A DNA stretch of 64,000 nt from Schmidtea polychroa (taxonomy: Eukaryota): contig CM097885.1 of the NCBI GenBank assembly GCA_044892525.1, forward strand, positions 232,314,001-232,378,000, written 5' to 3'. Position 1 is the first letter of the stretch, and each line of letters starts with the position of its first letter. This document shows, piece after piece, positions 16,258-57,802 of this stretch. Made by a program: the position numbers and the translations under genes. The notes below the pieces were generated by a model. It was not told where the DNA came from, did no database searches, and saw only the letters and a list, made by a program, of their open reading frames with translations.

Positions 16258-18414
16258 ATGAATGCTAACGGTATGTGTAATTTAAGTATGTATGATGATT
16301 GTATGATTGATAAAGATTGTAGTGTTTTTGAACGTGATATTAATAATAATAGTAGTGTAGAAATCAAAAAGTCGAATGATAAGGAAATTCAGAAAAAATT
16401 TAAAGAGGAGTGTAAAGTAAATGAATTAGTAAAACACGAGGAAAGAACTATAGAGAAAATTTACAAATTCCTCAAGAAAAATGGAGACGTGTGTATTAAT
16501 GAAATTGTAGAAGATACTAGAGAGCAGAATATTTTGTCAGTAGAAGAACAAAAAAGTCCAGTAATAACATATAATATAATGCAAGGTAGACCGAGTACAA
16601 CACTGGATATCCAAGGGCGGAAAGTAGATTGTTTATTGGATACAGGAGCGCGAATTAATGTGATGGCTAAATCTGTAATTGATAGATTAGAAAATATCGA
16701 AATATTAGAAACAAGGGAATCGCTAAGATGTGCAAACAACAGTAGATTAGAAACTATGGGTAAAATAAACATCAATGTTAAAATGGGCAGTATTGAAAGA
16801 AATGTAACATTCATTATAGTAAAGAATTTAATACCAGAAATTATTGGAGGAGTAGAACTACAAAGGTTATTTGGTATAGAATTGAAATGTATACTAGAAG
16901 AACATGAAAAACGTAGTGATTTCATTTGCGAAATAGAAGCTAGATTTGGGCGGATTATAACAGATGAAGAAAGATTATGTCATGCCATCGACGTTTTAAA
17001 GGTTACCGGAAATAAGAGACTGTTAGAAATATTTCAGGCAAACAAGAATGTTTTTATGGCAGATAAATGGGACATTGGGTGTACCAATCTGATAAAACAT
17101 AAGATCATCACGAAAGGAGAGCCAATAATGATTAAACCGAGACGCCAGCCAATAAATTTGGAAGACAAGATTGAGGAAGCAATAAAAAATCTAGAAAACA
17201 ACGGAATAATTAGGAAGTGTAATTCACCGTGGAACACACCTTTAGTTTGTGTATGGAAGAAAGAGAAAAAAGACATCAGGCTTTGTCTAGACTTCAGACA
17301 ATTAAACAAGATAACAGAAAGACAAGCATTTCCAATGCCAAATGTAGATGAAATTTTAGACATCCTACACGGATCCAGATATTTTAGCTCAATCGACTTG
17401 GGAAATGCTTATTACCAAGTGAAGTTAGATAAAGAATCTCAAGAGAAAACATCATTCTCAACAAAAGAAGGACAGTTCTGTTTTAACAGGATGCCGTTCG
17501 GTATTGCAGCGGCACCAGGAACATTTCAAGAATTAATGACGAAAGTATTGAAAGATTTGTGGAAAGATGGAGTGATGGTATATTTAGACGACATCCTAAT
17601 ATTCACAAAGACAGAAGAAGACCATTATAACATATTTGAAAAAGTCCTAGGGAAGATCGCAACAGCAGGACTAAGATTGAACCCCGAAAAATGTCAAATA
17701 TTTAGAAAAGAAGTGAAGTTTCTGGGACACATAATAAATAAAGACGGCATACAAACAGATAATACTAAGATAGAAGCAATACAATCATTTCAAAAGCCAA
17801 AATGTGTAAAGAATCTGAGGAGCTTTCTGGGTATCTGTAACTATTATCGACGGTTCATAAAAGACTATGCAAAGAAGGCAAGAGCACTAGAAAGCATATG
17901 CGGAAAAAACAATGAGAAAATAAGATGGACAGAGATGTGTGAAAAGGCTTTCGGGGAAATGAAAGAAGCATTGATAACCGCCCCAGTATTGGTATTTCCA
18001 GATTTCAGAAAAGAATTTATATTAGACACAGACGCGAGCTTCGATACTATTGGAGCAGTTCTTTCGCAAAAGGATGAAAAAGGACATGAACATGTCATTG
18101 CATATGGTTCACATGCGATGAGCAGCCACGAAAAAGGATACTGCATTACCAGAAAAGAATTATTGGCAATATACTATTTTTGTAAACATTTCAACCATTA
18201 CTTATATGGTAAGAGATTCGTACTGAGAACGGACCATAAAGCTATTACGTTTATGGTAACAACGAAGAAACCAATAACTGCTCAATTCCAGACATGGATC
18301 AACTATTTAAGCAGCCTGGATATTAAAATGGAATACAGGAAAGGAACAAGCCATACAAACGCGGATATGCTATCCAGGAAAACATGCGGAACATGTGTAC
18401 AGTGTATGATGTAA
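16258..18414 (+). CDS. pol: Ty3/gypsy Pol: protease, reverse transcriptase, RNase H; premature TAA at 18412-18414
   Basis: LLDTGA protease; RLCLDFRQLN, RMPFG and YLDD RT motifs; TDAS, KELLA, RTDH and NADMLSR RNase H motifs. Confidence 0.97.
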   Translation: MNANGMCNLSMYDDCMIDKDCSVFERDINNNSSVEIKKSNDKEIQKKFKEECKVNELVKHEERTIEKIYKFLKKNGDVCINEIVEDTREQNILSVEEQKSPVITYNIMQGRPSTTLDIQGRKVDCLLDTGARINVMAKSVIDRLENIEILETRESLRCANNSRLETMGKININVKMGSIERNVTFIIVKNLIPEIIGGVELQRLFGIELKCILEEHEKRSDFICEIEARFGRIITDEERLCHAIDVLKVTGNKRLLEIFQANKNVFMADKWDIGCTNLIKHKIITKGEPIMIKPRRQPINLEDKIEEAIKNLENNGIIRKCNSPWNTPLVCVWKKEKKDIRLCLDFRQLNKITERQAFPMPNVDEILDILHGSRYFSSIDLGNAYYQVKLDKESQEKTSFSTKEGQFCFNRMPFGIAAAPGTFQELMTKVLKDLWKDGVMVYLDDILIFTKTEEDHYNIFEKVLGKIATAGLRLNPEKCQIFRKEVKFLGHIINKDGIQTDNTKIEAIQSFQKPKCVKNLRSFLGICNYYRRFIKDYAKKARALESICGKNNEKIRWTEMCEKAFGEMKEALITAPVLVFPDFRKEFILDTDASFDTIGAVLSQKDEKGHEHVIAYGSHAMSSHEKGYCITRKELLAIYYFCKHFNHYLYGKRFVLRTDHKAITFMVTTKKPITAQFQTWINYLSSLDIKMEYRKGTSHTNADMLSRKTCGTCVQCMM

Positions 18415-43874: not shown

Positions 43875-46518
43875 TAAATTTAAGAAAAAAATTTGAAATT
43901 AAATAGAAACGAAAATTTAATTTTGAATTAGTAACAAATAAATTTTTACTAATATTAGAAATATTTTTCTTAAATTCTAAATTCAAAATTCAACATTTTC
44001 ATAGTTTATAGAGTTTAGCAATTGAACTATTAAAACAAATTCCTTAAAAGTTCGTGAATAATTTTTATTTAAAATAATTTACATTTTTTATAAAATATTA
44101 ATTTAATTGTTAATTGTTAAGATTTTTATGTATATAAAACTTTTTAAATATTTTTAGAAAAATGTAAATATTTTAATGTGAAAGTTGATTTTAAACTTTT
44201 AAAATTATTAGACAATGTTCGTTCACGACACTATTTTTAATAAATCCTTAATAAATAATTATTTTAACCACAAGAATACATGAATTAACTGTGATATAAA
44301 GTTAAAAACTTGATGACTTCTAAATGTGTCATCCGTGAATGACCGTCCGTTGATGACTCCTAAATGTGTAATCCTTGTCATCCGTGGTGAAAAGGTAATA
44401 TTAGGAACGAGGATGTTAGTTTATTTAAATATATTCACATGTAGAGATGACATCACTATCCTTCTGCTTATTTTCAAATTAATTTTAATAATTAATATTT
44501 AATATGCAATTTTTTATTTGTAAATGAAAAATTTTTGGATAATATTTTTAAAATTTAAATATCTTAAATATTTATGTGTTCATATAGGTTTTTAACTATC
44601 ATATCTTTGATTGGTAGTCATGAACATCTAAGTGAAAATGCAATGGAAATTAGTTTTGGAAACTGAGCTTATCCTTCAATTGATTTGCAGCCATTTTAAG
44701 CAGTTGCAACATTGTTCTTAATGGCAGTAACCGTGGAAATAGATATGACTAGAAAGCTAGATCATTTGGTGTTTTTGGTCAACACTGAAGCTATGGAAAC
44801 GAAACAATATGTCAATGAAGAACACTAACAAGACGAATAAAGCAAAAAGTACTTTCATAAGCTTCACTCTTAAAAACTTTAAACATTAACAAACATTGCT
44901 CCAAAACATGAGATGCTTTGAACCGGTGAAAAAGTTTATTGTTTTGACACCTACGATATTGTAATTTTGCACTTTTCCACAATATTCTAATAATCATTTT
45001 CCAGTTAATTTTAAATCACTAGTTTAACTTTTAATGACTTAAAGAATTTAAAAATAAATTTTCCAAAATAAGAATTTCAAAAAAATATTTTGTGTTTAAA
45101 CATAAATTATTTTTTAAAAATTTTGAGAAAAAAAAGTATGGTAAAATATACTATGAAACTTTTTCAATAAGAGTATGATTCATCAATGTTTTTGTTAAAT
45201 GGACAGCCGAATTATTTGAAAAGTATGTATCAAAATACTAGGGGAGGAGGGTTAGAAAAAAAATATTTTGAAAAATTATAGTCATAATGTAATAAGTCTT
45301 ACCCTTCCTGTCGGGTTTGTTAATACTTGGAAAAATTGTTAAAACAAATTATGACTCTTATTTTCATCTGACATGACTTCTTTGAACACCTAAATGAGTC
45401 ATACCATGAATCACATTCCGAATGACATGTGCCAGAGGGCTCACATCGACCTACTAACATTTGATTATAGATTGATCTTTAACAGCATTTGATCGATATA
45501 TAAGGTTTAAATTTGAATACAATGATTCGGGAGTAGCAAAAATTAAGAACGAACTTGGAAGGGACAATGTTTTGCATATACCTTGTTATTTAAGTTTTGA
45601 AAAGGCCGTCAGACATTCGATAATACATCGTTACCTTCAAAATGAAATATTGATTCCACCTAACTGGTGCTATCATACATTGAAATCCAGAAACTCTCTG
45701 ACATTTAACAGATATCTACTTGTCCACAGTTAAATATTCCTTTTCAGACGTAATTTTATGCCAAATTGACCAAAGATTTTGAATGGAAGAAATCTTTTAA
45801 AATTTCACGACAGATAACGTTGTGGTCAAGTCGATATCCGATTTCCCATATAAATATATGACTTGACTACTTGATACATATTAACCACTATAAAACTGCC
45901 TTCTACATTCATTTTGGGTGGAAATTTGGGTTCGTTTTACTTATTTTGAACCAAAGTTTTGAGTTTCTAAAATAAAATGAAAGTTAACATGTAATACAAG
46001 TTTCATCTAATATGTGTTTTCAGATTGGCGAGAAACCCAGCATGGGAAATTTATATTATATTCTACGAAGAATAGTTAATGTTTTTTTTTTAATTTTCGA
46101 AATGGCATACAGCCATTTACGACGGCAGCGGTTTTGACGAATACAATGACATTTTTCTGAAAAAAGACTAACACTTTTGAAAAAAGAGGAAAGATTTTTA
46201 TCAATCACATATGAAAGGACGTTAAAATATTAGAAAATATCTTAATGTCTATCTTGGTTTCAATATCATCAGCAATATGTCGAATTGCAAATATTTTCAT
46301 ATCATCTTATGTTAGATTGTGACAAACTACATTTTTGCTAGCTTTTCGATTTTCTTCAGAAATTTCACTATTGAATAACTTTATCTTCGAGTTGACAGAA
46401 AAATATTAGGATCACTTGATAAATTTTGATAAATTTTTATGATATAATTCGGCATCGATTTTATCAAATTTTCGAGTTGCTTATATTAAAAAAGTGCCAT
46501 CAAAAAGTGACGTCGCTA

Positions 46519-48180
46519 TGAACGCTTCGCCGCCACAAGCGGGGGGCAAATCAAAAAATCGTCCCACGACGGGGGACAGATACTTAAAGAAGCCTCGCCT
46601 GGAAAATGAATTACCTGCAACCAAATTTATTATGCAATCAATTGAAGAAATTGCAAAAGAAAAAGAATAGAACTCAAGACCAGTGTTCATCAAACCAAAC
46701 CTGGAAAAAACTACCAACATTGATGTCACTAAAGAAAACTTCAGCATAATGAGGAAATTCTTCATTATTAACAGCATATACAAGCACCAATCGCCTGAAG
46801 ATCAGAAGAAATCAATAATAATATCAAAAGATATTATTAACTCTATAGATGGATACAATGAAATAACTATCAACTGGCAGAAAGTAAAAAATGAATTAAG
46901 AATCCCAGACAAAGAAAATATGGACAAAGAAAATAAAACCAACTCCGAAATTCCCGGAATTTAGAGATGAAAAAATAATAAGCATAATAGAACAAAAGCT
47001 CCTAAAGATAAAATTCGATAATGAAGATTTTGTGGCATTTTGTGAACGTTGCGTGGTGGAAGAAGCAGAAATCACTGAAATGATTGCTCCGATTGAGATG
47101 GAGACTATTACTTATAACAAAGACGGTCTGTACTTACCAAAAAACAATGAAATACTTCAATTTTATGATCAGGAGATCATTTATTGCAGTACCTAGAGGT
47201 CTCAACTTAAAGAAATATATACCATTCCATCAAAATAAGGAGGATAATAATACGCAAATAGTAAACCAAAAAGAAGAAAATGAAGCTAATCAAGAAATAG
47301 AGACAAATGAAAATGATCAAACAAAAACCCAAGCAGAAACTGTTCAAGAAGAAAATGATCAAACAGAAATTGCCAAAATCAATTGCCAAATAGAAGACAA
47401 ACACAAGGAAGATCTATTCCAATTAAAAGATGGACCAAATATAGACTGGTTGCAACCAAAGGAAGAAATAATACCAGAAAATGAAGATACAAAGAATGAG
47501 ACTAAAATCTCTATAAAAGAACTAGCAAACAAAACCCAAAATGAAAATGAGGACTCAAATGCCAAAAATAAAATGAAAAGAAAAAAGAAAAGAACAACAA
47601 TAAAAAGAAAAAAGAAAGAAAACAAATAAGAGCAGCCTTGATCAATGAACTTAAAGGCCCGTTAAGAGCCGGTTATGACATAGAATATCATCAAATGGAC
47701 GAAGAAATAAATATGAATAAAGAAATATTCAAAACACTAGAAGAAATAACAAAAGTAGTGTGCAATTACTCCATTGAAGATTTACGGAACTATTTTATAG
47801 AATCTATCAAAGAAGAATATGGAAATAATCAAAATGAAATAGATATTAATGGAAAGATCATTAGATATATGATAGAAATTGCCGAAAAGGACATCAAACC
47901 AATGAAACGTATAGTAAATGTGATTAGAAAAGAAGATCAAGAAATTAAATTATTAAAAGAAACTCAAAAGGAGAAATGAACCCCTCCAAATCACAACCCA
48001 AGAAACAATGAAAAGAAACTTACAAAATGAAAATTACCGATGAATTGTGGATTCATCTAAATGGTCACTTTGAAAACCCTTATGCCTACCTATTCAAGTT
48101 GCTGAATTTAAATATAAGGCACCTGGTAGGTTTAACCTTCACAATGGGGATACAATACAATGTATACCTAAAGTGACTTG
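46519..48180 (+). pseudogene. Decayed long ORF of unknown family (possibly a non-LTR retroelement ORF1 or N-terminal region)
   Basis: ATG at 46519 (MNASPPQAGGKSKNRPTTGDRYLKKPRLENE), then successive open stretches (46683, 47084 and 47638 ORFs) joined by isolated stops and frameshifts; E/N/K/Q-rich, A-rich strand. Confidence 0.5.
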
Positions 48181-48223: not shown

Positions 48224-48540
48224 CTTTCTGACACCTCTTGCTACAAACTCTGTAAAAATCAAAAGGATCGATAGACCGCGCTTTCACGGTCTGTATTCGT
48301 ACTGAAAATCAAGATGAAGGAAGCTTTTCTCTTTTTAGTCAACACCAGGTTTCTGTCCTAGCTGAGATTCCCTTGGGACATCTGTGTTACCATTTGACAG
48401 ATGTACCGCCCCAGTCAAACTCCCCACCTGACACTGTCCTCAAAACAGTTCAATTGCATCTGAAGATCGCTATTTTTTCACTAAAAAAATTAACAAAAGT
48501 TAATTATACTTCATCATTGAGTAAGTAGAGAAATAATCTA
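48224..48540 (-). rRNA. Isolated, diverged 28S (LSU) rRNA fragment (pseudogenic)
   Basis: The reverse complement carries conserved LSU blocks GACAGTGTCAGGTGGGGAGTTTGACTGGGGCGGTACATCTGTCAAA, TTTTCAGTACGAATACAGACCGTGAAAGCG, TATCGATCCTTT and GCAAGAGGTGTCAGAAA; no other rDNA nearby. Confidence 0.93.
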
Positions 48541-48976
48541 AATACTGTACTATAATGTCATCATTCAATTTTAACATACCACAAATATTCAAACTTCTTT
48601 ATGTTAATTTTATGTACATTTATTAAAATAAATGTTATAACAATGTTATTTGTATATATCAACAAAATTATAAACTATTTCAAGGAAGAAGATATTAAAT
48701 TTGTTTATGTATTTATTTATTATAAAAATAAATCTAACATTGTATTATTGCAGACAAAAGTACAAAGTATTTAGGACGGATGTAATTTACATGAAATAAT
48801 TATGTTTTAAACATTTTACATCTACCTTTATTAAAGAAATGAAACTTTATATATTGTAATAGACTGGTAAAATAAATATTGCAGCAAGAGAAAATATAAT
48901 AAAACTGCGTTAAGATAAAGTGCCATAAATGTATAACTAGACGTGGAAATTTCATTTATTAAAAATCTTCACTATG

Positions 48977-52369: not shown

Positions 52370-53281
52370 TTTATTGTACATTTTTTCTCTATTAATTCTT
52401 TTTCACTCTCCTCACTGATTTGTCTTTCATGTAATAATTCGTTGTGTCTTTGCTTACATCCGGTAACCTTGCAGAAAGATTCTTTACGACATTCCTTGGC
52501 CATGTGATTTCTTTTGAAGCAATTCCTGCACAGTTTCTTTTCTTCGATGACTTTCTTCCTTTTTGAACTTGTGAGTAGCTTGAACCTAATCCAACAAATA
52601 TGTCAAAATCCTTCAAATCTCCTTCTCGAATTGGCCTGAATTTGTTTATCTCCTTTAACATTGATAAATATATCCTTTCATCCCCACCATATCGCCTATC
52701 CAACTTTTCTTTAGCCATTTGATAGGCCTCTGCCGAATATCCTAGGTTTTCAATTAACTTTAATGGCTCTCCGTGAAGGTACTTGTGCAGGTGAAACATC
52801 TTTTCAACCTCATCACCTTCCGCTTCGTTAACACACGCCGTAAAAGCTGCTTTCCATGGTTCGTACTTTTTTATCTTGCCTTCAAAGACAGGTATTGTAA
52901 TTTTTTGTAGACTTTTCAGTTTTCTTTTATGCACTGAATTATTTTTCTTGATTGTATCATCATTAACATTTTCTTTCTCTTCCATAAAAGATTGATTTGC
53001 TTTTCTTTCCATCAGTGCCCCAATTATTTCATGTTTTCCCTCGATCTCTTGCAGGTCTTTATCTAAGATTGCAGTGATGTCTAATCTTTGCAATTTTTTA
53101 CTGATCGTCCTCAGATCCCCTAATTCTTCATCTAGACTCTCCTTTTGATCTTCATATTCCTCCAACCATTCGCTAACTTCTTCCCATTTATATCATTGAG
53201 AATCTTGTTTCTCAATCTCGTTAATTTTCTTTTTTTCATTCTCTTTTTCGACAGTCCTTCTTCTAAAATCTCTTCGTCATT
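52370..53281 (-). mobile_element. gag: BEL/Pao Gag, internally deleted: N-terminal coil, DUF1759-like core and Cys/His knuckles
   Basis: KITIPVFEGKIKKYEPWKAAF...EKMFHLHKYLHGEPLKLIENLGYSAEAYQMAKEKLDRRYG; in another frame LCRNCFKRNHMAKECRKESFCKVTGCKQRHNELLH (about 52530-52429), typical of BEL/Pao. Confidence 0.92.
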
Positions 53282-53539
53282 GCCACTGCACAGCCTGAGT
53301 GACAAATGAAGTGTCGAACATACTTGTATTCTATAATCGTTCAATATTCTTTTATTTTCTAATTGCTTTCCTGCGTTTACTAACATTTGATAATTTACCG
53401 GAATTCCTTCTTTGTCTTGAATTTTTCCTTTTACCTTTTCAATCGTGTCATTCAATTCAACGTCAATAGTAATTGTCTTACCAGTCAGAGTTTTGATAAA
53501 TATTTGCTTCCTACTTTTCCATCGAAACTCAAAACCCAT
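53282..53539 (-). CDS. Divergent ubiquitin domain running into the Gag N-terminus
   Basis: [18 protein letters not shown]...[12 protein letters not shown]; 52/76 identical to canonical ubiquitin by manual count. An in-frame ATG lies at 53539; the Ub Met1 position reads AAG. Confidence 0.95.
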
Positions 53540-53749: not shown

Positions 53750-53945
53750 CCTTGATCAGCCAGGGCTGTCTCCACTGAAACATTGGTGTGTAGCCCCCTG
53801 AAGGGAACCACGCTCTGCTACCATGTTTTCGTCTAAGACACATAAGAAGAATTTCTTTGTAATTAATCGCATCACACGCTTTATTTGTACAAAACCATTG
53901 TTTGTTAAACCATTTAACGTGTCCAATAACTTGAGATTGAGCCAT
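53750..53945 (-). pseudogene. Frameshifted cold-shock domain (Y-box/Lin28-like)
   Basis: MAQSQVIGHVKWFNK, then shifted NGFVQI, and later TNVS; resembles GTVKWFNVRNGYGFI...ANVTG. Confidence 0.55.
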
Positions 53946-53948
53946 GAT

Positions 53949-54431
53949 TCAATTTGAAACATTGGATAATTGTTCAACACTTTGGCTAATAAACATTTGA
54001 ATTGTGTTGATCCTTTTAAGAGCTCCATTAAATAGAATATCATATTCATAAGTTAGCAAGTTTATCTTTTTATCGCTAATTTCAGAAATGGTTTCAGATA
54101 ATTTACGAATATCTTTAAATTTTTTGGGAAATTTCATAAACATATCTTGGAGTTCCTCTTCTGTCATTTCATGATATACAGAAATTAAATCGTTGATTTC
54201 CAATCGTTTTGATAAACTTTGAAAAATTGAATTAATGTCAATTAGAAATTTTGAAATATAAACGAATTCATAAAAATCTTGATTATCTATGACATTTACA
54301 TTACTTCCATTAATAATTTGCAACGATCTTGTTGAGCCACGATCACATGGACAAATTTCACTGCTGAAAAGACATCTCTTCGCTATATTGCTCATTGAAA
54401 TACGACATATCAAACATTCATTATCTTCCAT
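53949..54431 (-). CDS. Orphan 160-aa ORF with N-terminal Cys cluster (CLIC...C...CPC)
   Basis: Intact ATG-to-TGA frame whose stop lies 3 nt before the CSD ATG; no family recognised. Confidence 0.55.
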   Translation of the reverse strand: MEDNECLICRISMSNIAKRCLFSSEICPCDRGSTRSLQIINGSNVNVIDNQDFYEFVYISKFLIDINSIFQSLSKRLEINDLISVYHEMTEEELQDMFMKFPKKFKDIRKLSETISEISDKKINLLTYEYDILFNGALKRINTIQMFISQSVEQLSNVSN

Positions 54432-54562
54432 ATTTCACTAAGGCCGAAAATTCAAAAACAACCCTAATTACCAAAATTATAAATCAATTCTAAAAAACTT
54501 CCAGAATTCGAATCATATTTACAAAATCGATAGAAAAACCCAAATACAAAAAAAAGTAAAAA

Positions 54563-54578
54563 GCGCACACAGACGCGA
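54563..54578 (-). promoter_or_regulatory. 16-mer TCGCGTCTGTGTGCGC, identical to the 18776 motif
   Basis: Plus strand gcgcacacagacgcga, about 130 nt upstream of the 54431 ATG. Confidence 0.5.
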
Positions 54579-54842
54579 AACCCGATAATTAACCAGTACA
54601 TACATAATATAAATTTTTAAAGTGATAATAATATGTATAAAACTTAAATATTAACCGATTATAATTAAGCAGATATAAATTCCCATGAGGTCAAAATTAA
54701 CCATTTTCGGAAAAGAAATTTATTTAGAAACCGTGTAAGATCGAAAACGTGTTAAACGAATACCGTCCTAAACGGGGACAGGTGTAATTTTCAATTTAAA
54801 TTCGAATACTTTTAATTTTTCAAGATATGTAATGGTTTCAAT

Positions 54843-55962: not shown

Positions 55963-57462
55963 TTATGTCTTGATAATATGTGATATAAAATTACTTGAAA
56001 CACAAAATGTTAATGCACATATAAGGGAAATCAAAATGTATCCTTCAATACCAATTAAATAACTACTTGGGATCAAATGTTCTAAATATTTTCCGTGAAG
56101 AAATATTTCAGCAGAATTGCATTTAATTATCATATAGACAAGAATCGGCACCAATTCATCAGCTCCAATTTCTAATGATGCATTCTGATTTTGTATTTTA
56201 GACATTAAGTCAGTTATAATTTGGCACAAGCTTTCCAGCTTTACAAGAGGGTTGTAAATATTGCGCAATTTTGAAAATTGTGAAGTTTGATCATCTAAAA
56301 TCATAATCACTTCGGGTTGAGTAAGAAATTTATCTGGAAGTAAATTTTCATATTTATTATTCTCTTCAATAAACTTTAGATTTCGATCATATTGTTTTAA
56401 CTCCTCATCATATGCAATAAACAAAAATTGGTAAATAAATGGACAAATTTTAATATTCTTGAAAATATATTCTAGTAAAACATTTTGCAATTTCGGATAG
56501 ATGGTTGAAATTTGATCACTCGAATTGGCATTAATTACCAAACAACATAATTTTGACAAATCTTCAATTGTGTCATTCCAAACTTTCAATTCATCCATAA
56601 AAGCGTTTTGATTTTCTTTATTAAAAGAAAAATTAAGGAGTTTTTCAACTAATTTACTAATAAAATCAACGACCGGATGGACATTGTTCATTTTTAAAAT
56701 AAAAGACAAACATGAGACTTCTGGGGAATGAGTTGATTTTACAAATGAATAGGTTCGACTATCCTTTAAAATATGATAGTAAAACAATTGACTACTGCGA
56801 TATAATATTGGAAAATCTGGATTGTTTTTAAAAAATCCAAAGCGGTTAATATCTTCGGAAATTTTTGTCAGTAATATTTCCAAATTATTTACATTTGTTT
56901 GATACATTTGGTTTTCGTGCTTCCTAGCTATACTAAGATTATGTTCGATTTCTCGACTTATCCGTAATTGCAATGACGCTTTTTCGCTCACAGACAATCT
57001 TCCAGATTCTAACAATTTATTAGTAGATTTGATTAATTTCTGAATATTAGATTTAGCTGAATCTATAGGATTCACGGGTCTTTCTGTTAGTAGACTTTCA
57101 ATAGATGACATAGGTGACATAGATCTGGATAAGCTGGGATTTCTTTTTTTGTCCAGGGAGTTGGAAATTTGTGATTTTAATTTATTTTCATCCTCATCTG
57201 CAATTTGTTCTGTTACTCGACGACAACAATGCTGCGCGGTTGTTAAAATGCTCAAATGATTATTTCGTATATGTTTCATTGTTTCCACTTTATTTTCAAA
57301 GGAATGTGTATTCAAATCTTCGTCCAAAATCGTAAAAATATCTTTAATGCTTTTGACATATTTTTGATAAATTAACAATCTGATTTCTATGGAATTATTA
57401 TTATTTTGATCAAGTTGCATTGCTTGATAAATAAAGTTTTTAACTTCATTAAGAGAATTCAT
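55963..57462 (-). CDS. VPS9D1: VPS9 domain-containing protein 1-like (Rab5-family GEF domain, N-terminal MIT-like helix); single coding exon, 499 aa
   Basis: C-terminal PLVKLESL...GADELVPILVYMIIKCN...GIEGYILISL is a VPS9 domain; AMQLD near the N-terminus. ATG at 57462 follows a 45-nt GTAAGT...ATTAG intron (57515-57471). Confidence 0.85.
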   Translation of the reverse strand: MNSLNEVKNFIYQAMQLDQNNNNSIEIRLLIYQKYVKSIKDIFTILDEDLNTHSFENKVETMKHIRNNHLSILTTAQHCCRRVTEQIADEDENKLKSQISNSLDKKRNPSLSRSMSPMSSIESLLTERPVNPIDSAKSNIQKLIKSTNKLLESGRLSVSEKASLQLRISREIEHNLSIARKHENQMYQTNVNNLEILLTKISEDINRFGFFKNNPDFPILYRSSQLFYYHILKDSRTYSFVKSTHSPEVSCLSFILKMNNVHPVVDFISKLVEKLLNFSFNKENQNAFMDELKVWNDTIEDLSKLCCLVINANSSDQISTIYPKLQNVLLEYIFKNIKICPFIYQFLFIAYDEELKQYDRNLKFIEENNKYENLLPDKFLTQPEVIMILDDQTSQFSKLRNIYNPLVKLESLCQIITDLMSKIQNQNASLEIGADELVPILVYMIIKCNSAEIFLHGKYLEHLIPSSYLIGIEGYILISLICALTFCVSSNFISHIIKT

Positions 57463-57802
57463 GTTATATTCTAATTTAATTTCAATTAATTTACGAGAAA
57501 TATAAATCAACTTACTTCACTGTTTGTAAACACTGGTTTATGTGAAAATCGAAATAATAATGGACACACATTAAATTCTAATTTTAAATGGACTTAGAAC
57601 TTTTATAATATAATAATCAATAATAATATAAGAATAAAATATAAGAATAAATTAAAATATTTTTATATTAAATGAAAAAATAAAATTTTAAACATAAATT
57701 TCATAATAAATGTAATTTTATAAAGAAATAAAATTTAATATAAAACTGTCAGTTTGTTTAGTTGCGTTTCTTTTAACCAATCAATTTAACGAACTTTTAA
57801 TT

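What the first reader, a model, noticed from the sequence alone, without database searches (positions are those of the whole stretch)
53750..54431. Tightly packed accessory cassette upstream of Ub-Gag: Cys-rich orphan ORF then cold-shock domain, 3 nt apart
Seen: an intact 160-aa orphan ORF ends TGA-ATC-ATG into a cold-shock-domain start (GHVKWFN..NGF). Both are on the same strand as Ub-Gag and show no introns. This packing is unlike the intron-split host genes here and resembles virus or giant-retroelement cargo. Established: CSD proteins (Y-box, Lin28) are RNA chaperones, and giant planarian Ty3/gypsy (Burro) elements carry accessory ORFs. Inference: a cargo-bearing element combining an RNA chaperone, ubiquitin and a possible Zn-binding protein. 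Alternatively this cassette is a separate element lying next to the BEL copy.
Basis: partly seen in the sequence, partly recalled or inferred. Interest (0 to 1): 0.72.

Follow-up and report, generated by a model that had tools for sequence, protein, structure and literature searches.

The report
Host mRNA scraps inside retrotransposon LTR
The supposed two-gene cassette is really scraps of two host genes (a RING-finger gene and a spliced Y-box message) lodged inside the terminal repeat of a BEL/Pao jumping gene, where they likely serve as a disposable, swappable front end of the element's own protein that a built-in ubiquitin would let the cell clip off.

Summary
The letters are there, but the reading is wrong. 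Both 'genes' lie inside the 772-nt 5' LTR (54595-53824) of a decayed BEL/Pao retrotransposon, directly before its primer-binding site. The 160-aa 'orphan' is the 5' third of a host RING-finger gene with the central zinc ligands deleted. The 'CSD' is about 60 nt of a spliced host Y-box mRNA; no domain follows. The TGA of TGA-ATC-ATG occurs in 1 of 91 copies; 86 read TCA, one continuous frame. Across the family the LTR frame runs through the PBS into leader-ubiquitin-Gag-Pol (longest upstream frame in 30 of 30 PBS sites), while LTR cargo differs (proteasome alpha, EAP30, DUSP, Adaptin, HSP70 pieces). Widespread deletions in this LTR frame are multiples of three (6 of 6), yet its amino acids drift, unlike Ub and Gag. 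Best model: translation likely starts at a captured host AUG in the LTR, and ubiquitin would free Gag. The scan reported this family architecture before on other DNA of this genome (four notes); new here are the donors, junctions, capture order and the frame-versus-residue test. Not Burro, not a cargo operon.

The parts
53824..54595 (-). 5' LTR of a BEL/Pao element, 772 nt, TG...CA
   Evidence: Matches in other places stop exactly at 53824; solo copies carry 5-bp target duplications, 3' copies follow a polypurine tract
54435..54595 (-). LTR 5' part: CGCGTCTGTGTGCGC-type motif shared by all LTR subtypes seen, then a T-rich stretch; presumed promoter/5' UTR (inferred)
53949..54431 (-). The 160-codon frame; its stop is private to this copy
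54028..54434 (-). 5' fragment of an intronless host RING-finger gene (L087:4488-5792, G000:C3:47.646 Mb, 435 aa), with 48-nt and 45-nt in-frame deletions; RING core removed
53957..54044 (-). Remnant of an older LTR cargo ('X' subfamily, L266, L366-L395) into which RING and Y-box pieces were swapped; donor not found
53895..53956 (-). About 60 nt of spliced host Y-box (CSD) mRNA: end of 5' UTR, ATG, exon junction after 53939, GHVKWFN
53880..53885 (-). AATAAA, 62 nt from the LTR end; putative poly(A) signal (inferred)
   Evidence: family spacing
53806..53823 (-). Primer-binding site TGGTAGCAGAGCGTGGTT (initiator-Met tRNA type, assignment recalled)
   Evidence: 351 exact sites of the CA+PBS pattern in the genome
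53510..53805 (-). Leader between PBS and ubiquitin, in frame with LTR ORF and Ub in intact relatives; frameshifted in this copy
53282..53509 (-). Ubiquitin-like domain, ending LRLCSG in this copy (LRLCGG in 37 of 42 copies)
   Evidence: (PF00240 E=3e-20)
52398..53281 (-). Broken BEL Gag (DUF1759, zinc knuckle), frameshifted, internally deleted and truncated; no pol and no 3' LTR found in the window

Best explanation
This is the 5' LTR of a decayed BEL/Pao retrotransposon whose repeat contains pieces of host mRNAs, likely picked up by reverse-transcriptase template switching and likely translated as a disposable leader in frame with ubiquitin-Gag-Pol, with host deubiquitinases predicted to cut after the ubiquitin and free Gag. 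Shown: LTR identity, donors, intron loss, short shared sequences at three junctions, one frame from the LTR through the PBS into Ub-Gag-Pol in intact relatives, frame-preserving deletions, no residue-level selection on the LTR frame but selection on Ub and Gag. Inferred: transcription starts upstream of the captured AUG (long R region), the leader is translated, ubiquitin is cleaved. Because the leader would be thrown away, any host fragment is tolerated provided it keeps the frame, which explains the rapid cargo turnover. The likely order here: an older 'X' cargo, then the Y-box piece (L191 has X plus Y-box without RING), then the RING piece replacing the 5' part of X, then loss of the RING core.
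For: LTR. Donors: RING gene single 100% hit, member of a divergent family with 31 matches; Y-box exon-exon junction. Junction microsimilarity of 9, 14 and 8 nt (window has one private change in the last). Frame: in 16 of 20 young copies the longest ORF (up to 2238 aa) is the frame entering the PBS from the LTR; in the first 30 of 351 PBS sites that frame is the longest upstream in 30 of 30 (median 182 codons against at most 38; 15 distinct LTR ends); AATAAA lies 35, 41, 44, 53 or 59 nt from the LTR end in 26 of 30, always the same phase. Indels among 91 RING/Y-box LTRs: 6 of 6 found in four or more copies are 3n, 7 of 10 in two or more, 19 of 53 private. Substitutions in the LTR frame: N/S/stop 289/80/28 singletons, 42/16/0 in four or more copies; Gag 150/59/11 against 18/26/0 (p=7e-5), Ub 52/15/1 against 13/11/0 (p=0.036), leader 23/15/5 against 9/2/0 (p=0.47). 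Gly-Gly kept in 37 of 42. Internal regions 97.7-99.7% alike with no shared LTR cargo in 6 of 10 pairs.
Against: No transcription start, ribosome or protein data. In-frame Met codons exist in the leader after the PBS, so Gag could start there. Short upstream ATGs precede the cargo ATG in the window LTR and in L292. The shared-versus-private indel contrast at the two-copy threshold is not significant (Fisher p=0.077; binomial against one third p=0.02) and the four-copy threshold was chosen after seeing the data. Most of the 91 copies came from a protein search that favours open frames, and the 20 young copies were picked for long ORFs. The element ubiquitin ends LRLCGG rather than LRLRGG, so cleavage is not guaranteed. 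Only one of the RING/Y-box 5' LTR copies examined (L096) keeps the LTR-to-Ub phase, with one stop; six others are out of phase through small indels.
Confidence: 0.75

Rival explanations
1. Passive junk: host pieces are copied into the LTR by template switching but are not translated; Gag starts at a Met in the leader after the PBS.
For: In-frame Met codons in the leader; no residue-level selection on cargo; upstream short ATG frames.
Against: Does not explain 30 of 30 PBS sites (15 LTR ends) with the long frame in phase, constant phase of AATAAA, or 6 of 6 widespread 3n deletions.
Confidence: 0.12
2. The captured peptides are functional accessory proteins (RING E3 or decoy, RNA chaperone) released from Gag by ubiquitin cleavage to manipulate the host ubiquitin system.
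For: Several cargos touch the ubiquitin-proteasome/ESCRT system (RING, zinc-ribbon E3-like, proteasome alpha, EAP30); 13 of 91 copies keep the RING core DNA and 8 of these 13 the ligand pattern.
Against: The RING-breaking deletion spread to 71 of 91 copies; no purifying selection on residues; Y-box piece is under 20 codons; cargo also includes actin, DUSP, Adaptin_N and HSP70 pieces.
Confidence: 0.07
3. The leader is translated but ubiquitin stays on and marks the fusion for degradation, acting as a brake on Gag level, with the element's own protease releasing Gag.
For: Ubiquitin is diverged (LRLCGG; 5 of 42 copies altered at the Gly-Gly); uncleaved N-terminal ubiquitin fusions are degradation signals (listing abstract of PMC3564756).
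Against: Gly-Gly followed by a non-proline residue is kept in 37 of 42 and a sister family has LRLRGG-MQI then LAGG.
Confidence: 0.04
4. One reading: a polycistronic cargo cassette (orphan Zn protein, CSD, ubiquitin) of a giant element, or a separate element beside the BEL copy.
For: Order ORF-CSD-Ub-Gag recurs elsewhere.
Against: It recurs because it is the LTR; stop codon private to this copy; no CSD; elements are about 7.5 kb BEL/Pao.
Confidence: 0.02

Closest known systems
BEL/Pao LTR retrotransposons (PMC3118150, passages read; planarian 'Flow' families mentioned there)
   Same: TG...CA LTRs, 5-bp target duplication, tRNA PBS, PPT, single ORF with DUF1759, DUF1758 protease, RT, Peptidase_A17, integrase, DUF5641
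   Different: ORF opens about 150-230 codons inside the LTR, LTR filled with host mRNA mosaics, ubiquitin before Gag; 'ubiquitin' has 0 occurrences in that paper's main text
LTR-mediated retroposition (Tan et al. 2016, PMC5131818, passages read; also maize Bs1 as cited there)
   Same: Partial, intron-less host mRNA pieces, several donors per chimera, microsimilarity at junctions
   Different: There the retrocopy replaces part of the internal ORF, giving non-autonomous chimeras; here it sits in the LTR of elements with intact ORFs, is copied to both ends and stays in frame with Gag-Pol
Cellular ubiquitin insertions in cytopathic pestiviruses (PMC8310069, passages read)
   Same: Captured ubiquitin placed in a polyprotein so that host hydrolases create the authentic N-terminus of the downstream protein, with a scrap of host protein upstream
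   Different: RNA virus, cleavage shown experimentally; here a retrotransposon, fixed family-wide, cleavage only predicted
Burro giant Ty3/gypsy elements of planarians (PMC6431247, passages read)
   Same: Planarian LTR elements with extra host-like domains
   Different: Burro exceeds 30 kb with domains inside a 4,873-aa polyprotein; these are about 7.5-kb BEL/Pao elements with drifting fragments in the LTR
Yeast Ty1, whose GAG frame starts inside the 5' LTR (recalled; not confirmed by the passages of PMC4974528 that I saw)
   Same: Gag frame crossing the LTR end and PBS
   Different: Ty1's LTR part is short, its own sequence and part of Gag

Membership tests
BEL/Pao LTR retrotransposon | LTRs with TG...CA ends and 5-bp target-site duplication | tested here: met
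   20 of 93 rows with exact 5-bp TSD by the first motif (18 independent), four more by eye for the second LTR start type; window copy has only the 5' LTR
BEL/Pao LTR retrotransposon | PBS after 5' LTR and polypurine tract before 3' LTR | tested here: met
   tRNA identity of the PBS is recalled
BEL/Pao LTR retrotransposon | Gag (DUF1759, CCHC)-protease-RT-Peptidase_A17-integrase-DUF5641 order | tested here: met
   L292 ORF; the window copy keeps only Ub-Gag, 90-97% alike to L292
BEL/Pao LTR retrotransposon | Placement of RT in a named BEL/Pao superfamily by phylogeny | not tested
   no tree built
Cold-shock domain (Y-box) protein | Whole ~66-residue domain (PF00313) | tested here: not met
   only the first 12-20 profile positions
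C3HC4 RING finger | Eight zinc ligands | tested here: not met
   central C-H-C-C deleted in the window copy; donor scores zf-C3HC4_3 E=3e-4, below the curated cut-off, its tandem paralogue zf-RING_2 E=4e-11
Burro giant Ty3/gypsy | Over 25 kb, gypsy-type pol, accessory domains in internal ORFs | tested here: not met
   about 7.5 kb, Pao-type domains
LTR-mediated retrocopy (Tan 2016) | Intron loss and microsimilarity at junctions | tested here: met
   RING donor is intronless so gives no intron test; microsimilarity not compared with a simulated null
LTR-mediated retrocopy (Tan 2016) | Retrocopy replaces internal ORF between the LTRs | tested here: not met
   capture is inside the LTR
Ubiquitin processing signal | C-terminal Gly-Gly followed by a non-proline residue | tested here: met
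   37 of 42 copies; altered in the window copy
Ubiquitin processing signal | Cleavage by host hydrolases | not testable with these tools
   needs biochemistry

The most novel reading that the evidence does not exclude
A retrotransposon clade that uses its LTR as a rapidly re-shuffled disguise: it keeps replacing most of its repeat with translated pieces of host housekeeping mRNAs, so that its RNA looks like a well-translated self message to the piRNA system, and pays no protein cost because a captured ubiquitin sheds the leader. Planarian SMEDWI-1 is reported to turn poorly translated transcripts into piRNAs (abstract of PMC10954484), which would select for exactly an open frame with indifferent residues.
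Probability: 0.25. Interest if true: 0.88.

Novelty: new variant of a known kind. Interest (0 to 1): 0.66.

Why it matters
LTRs are normally treated as non-coding control regions. Here a whole active clade appears to translate its LTR, to swap that coding content among near-identical elements, and to decouple it from Gag with ubiquitin. It offers a natural test of whether transposons evade small-RNA surveillance by being translated and by resembling host mRNAs. It also scatters hundreds of pseudo-fragments of Y-box, proteasome, RING and other genes over the genome (82 CSD and at least 151 proteasome-family matches), which can mislead annotation, RNA-seq mapping and RNAi design.

Tried and rejected
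Database homologue search with the 160-aa frame: no hit; with donor residues 60-435: no hit; with the Ub-Gag region: the 120 listed of 356 hits were dominated by ubiquitin-repeat proteins, uninformative on Ub-Gag elsewhere. The HMMER representative search was queued and never returned (ticket). I first read the gaps against L087 as introns; they are in-frame deletions in the LTR of an intronless gene. I considered a SINE-like origin for copies flanked by (AAT)n; they are LTRs of a second start type sitting in microsatellite on both sides. Donor of the 'X' cargo not found: 30 of 30 loci examined lacked RING and Y-box pieces and looked like further repeat copies (the LTR-end motif mostly failed, so no phase count). 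Expression: no run on record as RNA was listed; contigs of runs guessed to be RNA cover the LTR, including the LTR-specific 87-nt deletion and the TCA allele, but none spans the stretch and contigs show no start, strand or level, so I do not count this as evidence. The ubiquitin census was not deduplicated and is replaced. No tRNA in the window. No structure prediction was run because the donors settled the identity. Literature searches listed no paper describing this architecture; subscription papers, Grohme 2018 and the Repbase report on planarian BEL elements cited in PMC3118150 were not seen, nor any supplements.

Full report
Observation. On the minus strand a 160-codon frame runs from 54431 to a TGA at 53951-53949, followed by ATC and ATG GCT CAA ... 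GGA CAC GTT AAA TGG TTT AAC; ubiquitin (PF00240, E=3e-20) and DUF1759 Gag follow. Pfam finds nothing in the 160-aa frame or in the two frames tested after the second ATG.

It is an LTR. A DNA search of the genome (781 Mb, four large contigs; an AT-rich animal, probably a planarian, inferred and not tested) gave one class of matches that continue into Ub-Gag and another that stops exactly at 53824. The base after 53824 begins TGGTAGCAGAGCGTGGTT, a tRNA primer-binding site. Copies that stop there are solo LTRs with 5-bp target duplications (20 of 93 rows by one start motif, more by a second) or 3' LTRs behind a polypurine tract. The window LTR is 54595-53824. A 30-nt pattern from its end has 159 matches. 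The window copy is dead: frameshifts between LTR frame, Ub and Gag, a changed Gly-Gly, Gag truncated at 52398, no pol or 3' LTR.

The 'CSD'. PF00313 gave 82 matches in the genome. Host genes L064, L066 and L067 match the LTR at DNA level; the LTR joins their exon 1 to exon 2 without the 51-52-nt intron. Similarity ends by 53895. A profile of ten host CSDs covers only its first 12-20 of 72 positions in any frame or X-at-break reading. So this is about 60 nt from the 5' end of a spliced mRNA.

The 'orphan'. A protein search returned 224 matches, nearly all LTR copies, and one 435-aa intronless frame at C3:47.646 Mb. It begins with a RING motif, has one exact copy and 30 divergent relatives, and matches the LTR at about 94% (91 copies: median 93%). 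The LTR lacks 45 nt of it in all copies aligned to the long form and, in 71 of 91, a further 48 nt between two GCGAAG repeats that held the central zinc ligands. Thirteen of 91 copies keep that core. The 90 nt between RING and Y-box pieces belong to another LTR subfamily (L266; 30 of 30 loci without RING or Y-box). Junctions show shared runs of 9, 14 and 8 nt; L191 carries that older cargo plus Y-box but no RING, which suggests the order of captures.

The stop is private. At the TGA site 86 of 91 copies read TCA and only the window reads TGA. The 91 copies are 93 rows minus 7 duplicates and 7 truncated or redundant rows, plus 12 new of the 30 loci.

The frame runs on. A protease query found young relatives with open frames up to 2238 codons. 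In 20 fetched (chosen for long frames), 18 have paired LTRs 98.8-100% alike, and in 16 the longest ORF is the frame that enters the PBS from the LTR. One such ORF has Ub, DUF1759, protease, RT, Peptidase_A17, integrase and DUF5641. Their LTR cargo is not RING/Y-box but other pieces; internal regions of five subtypes are 97.7-99.7% alike while 6 of 10 pairs share no cargo. In the first 30 of 351 PBS sites, chosen without regard to LTR content, that frame is the longest upstream frame in 30 of 30, at least 100 codons in 24, across 15 distinct LTR ends. Cargo scores as proteasome, EAP30, DSPc, Adaptin_N and HSP70, a zinc-ribbon piece that I recognise from memory as RNF126/115-like, a Rab1-like piece (recalled), and, in an older group sharing the LTR start motif, CSD plus actin (their 3' ends were not defined). 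A sister family has two ubiquitin units.

Frame kept, residues not. Indels found in four or more copies are all 3n (48, 87, 54, 93, 15, 3 nt), against 19 of 53 private ones; at two or more copies it is 7 of 10 (Fisher p=0.077). The pattern-selected sample shows the same shared deletions. Shared substitutions in the LTR frame are not enriched for silent changes (42 N, 16 S, 0 stops, against 289, 80, 28 singletons), whereas the same test on 48 loci detects selection in Gag (p=7e-5) and Ub (p=0.036) but not in the leader. Recurrent mutation blurs the low-count classes.

Mechanism. Shown: capture from mRNA, in-frame fusion, frame constraint, conserved Ub. Inferred: transcription from the LTR 5' part, translation from the captured AUG, cleavage after Gly-Gly as shown for ubiquitin insertions in pestiviruses (PMC8310069, passages), capture by template switching as in Tan et al. 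(PMC5131818, passages). Why cargo turns over so fast is open: tolerated drift, or escape from piRNA surveillance of poorly translated RNA (PMC10954484, abstract). Against the model: leader Met codons, upstream short ATG frames, no expression data, and most RING/Y-box 5' copies are now out of phase.

Known and new. It is a BEL/Pao element, not Burro (PMC6431247, passages). Six library searches listed no description of this layout; Repbase and subscription papers were not seen. Four earlier notes of this scan reached the same family-level reading on other DNA of this genome; I had formed mine before that look-up. Verdict: first reading partly supported, real feature a new variant of a known kind, interest 0.66.

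Noticed in passing
window 48226-48569 (-): Isolated 340-nt fragment of eukaryotic LSU rRNA (RF02543, 227 bits) beside decayed coding-like sequence at 46500-48000; a shorter rRNA-looking piece near 46500 was not confirmed.
   Followed up: partly
window 55963-57516 (-): 517-codon uninterrupted frame with a VPS9 domain, a host gene just upstream of the element.
   Followed up: no
G000:C2:21.64-21.71 Mb (L002-L016); C54:132-145 kb; C2:9.58-9.62 Mb (L091): Tandem arrays of truncated copies: about 15 units of 4.6 kb, a 4.5-kb array, and a 995-nt LTR array.
   Followed up: no
L073-L080: Older repeats with the same LTR start motif carrying a longer Y-box piece fused to actin pieces; about 60 weak CSD matches may be of this kind.
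   Followed up: partly
L045, L095, L126, L129, L136, L138, L154, L158 and others: LTRs of the TGTTTCGAC start type often sit inside (AAT)n microsatellite on both sides, suggesting a target preference.
   Followed up: no
G000:C3:47.63-47.69 Mb and C2:111-125 Mb: Expanded family of intronless 420-490-aa RING proteins with no database homologue for the part after the RING.
   Followed up: partly
L089:342-4474: Polinton-like or virus-like gene cluster (capsid-like, integrase, ATPase-like frames; labels recalled, not tested) next to an element copy.
   Followed up: no
window 17347-17676: Weak (27%) match to the element's RT region, another retroelement.
   Followed up: no
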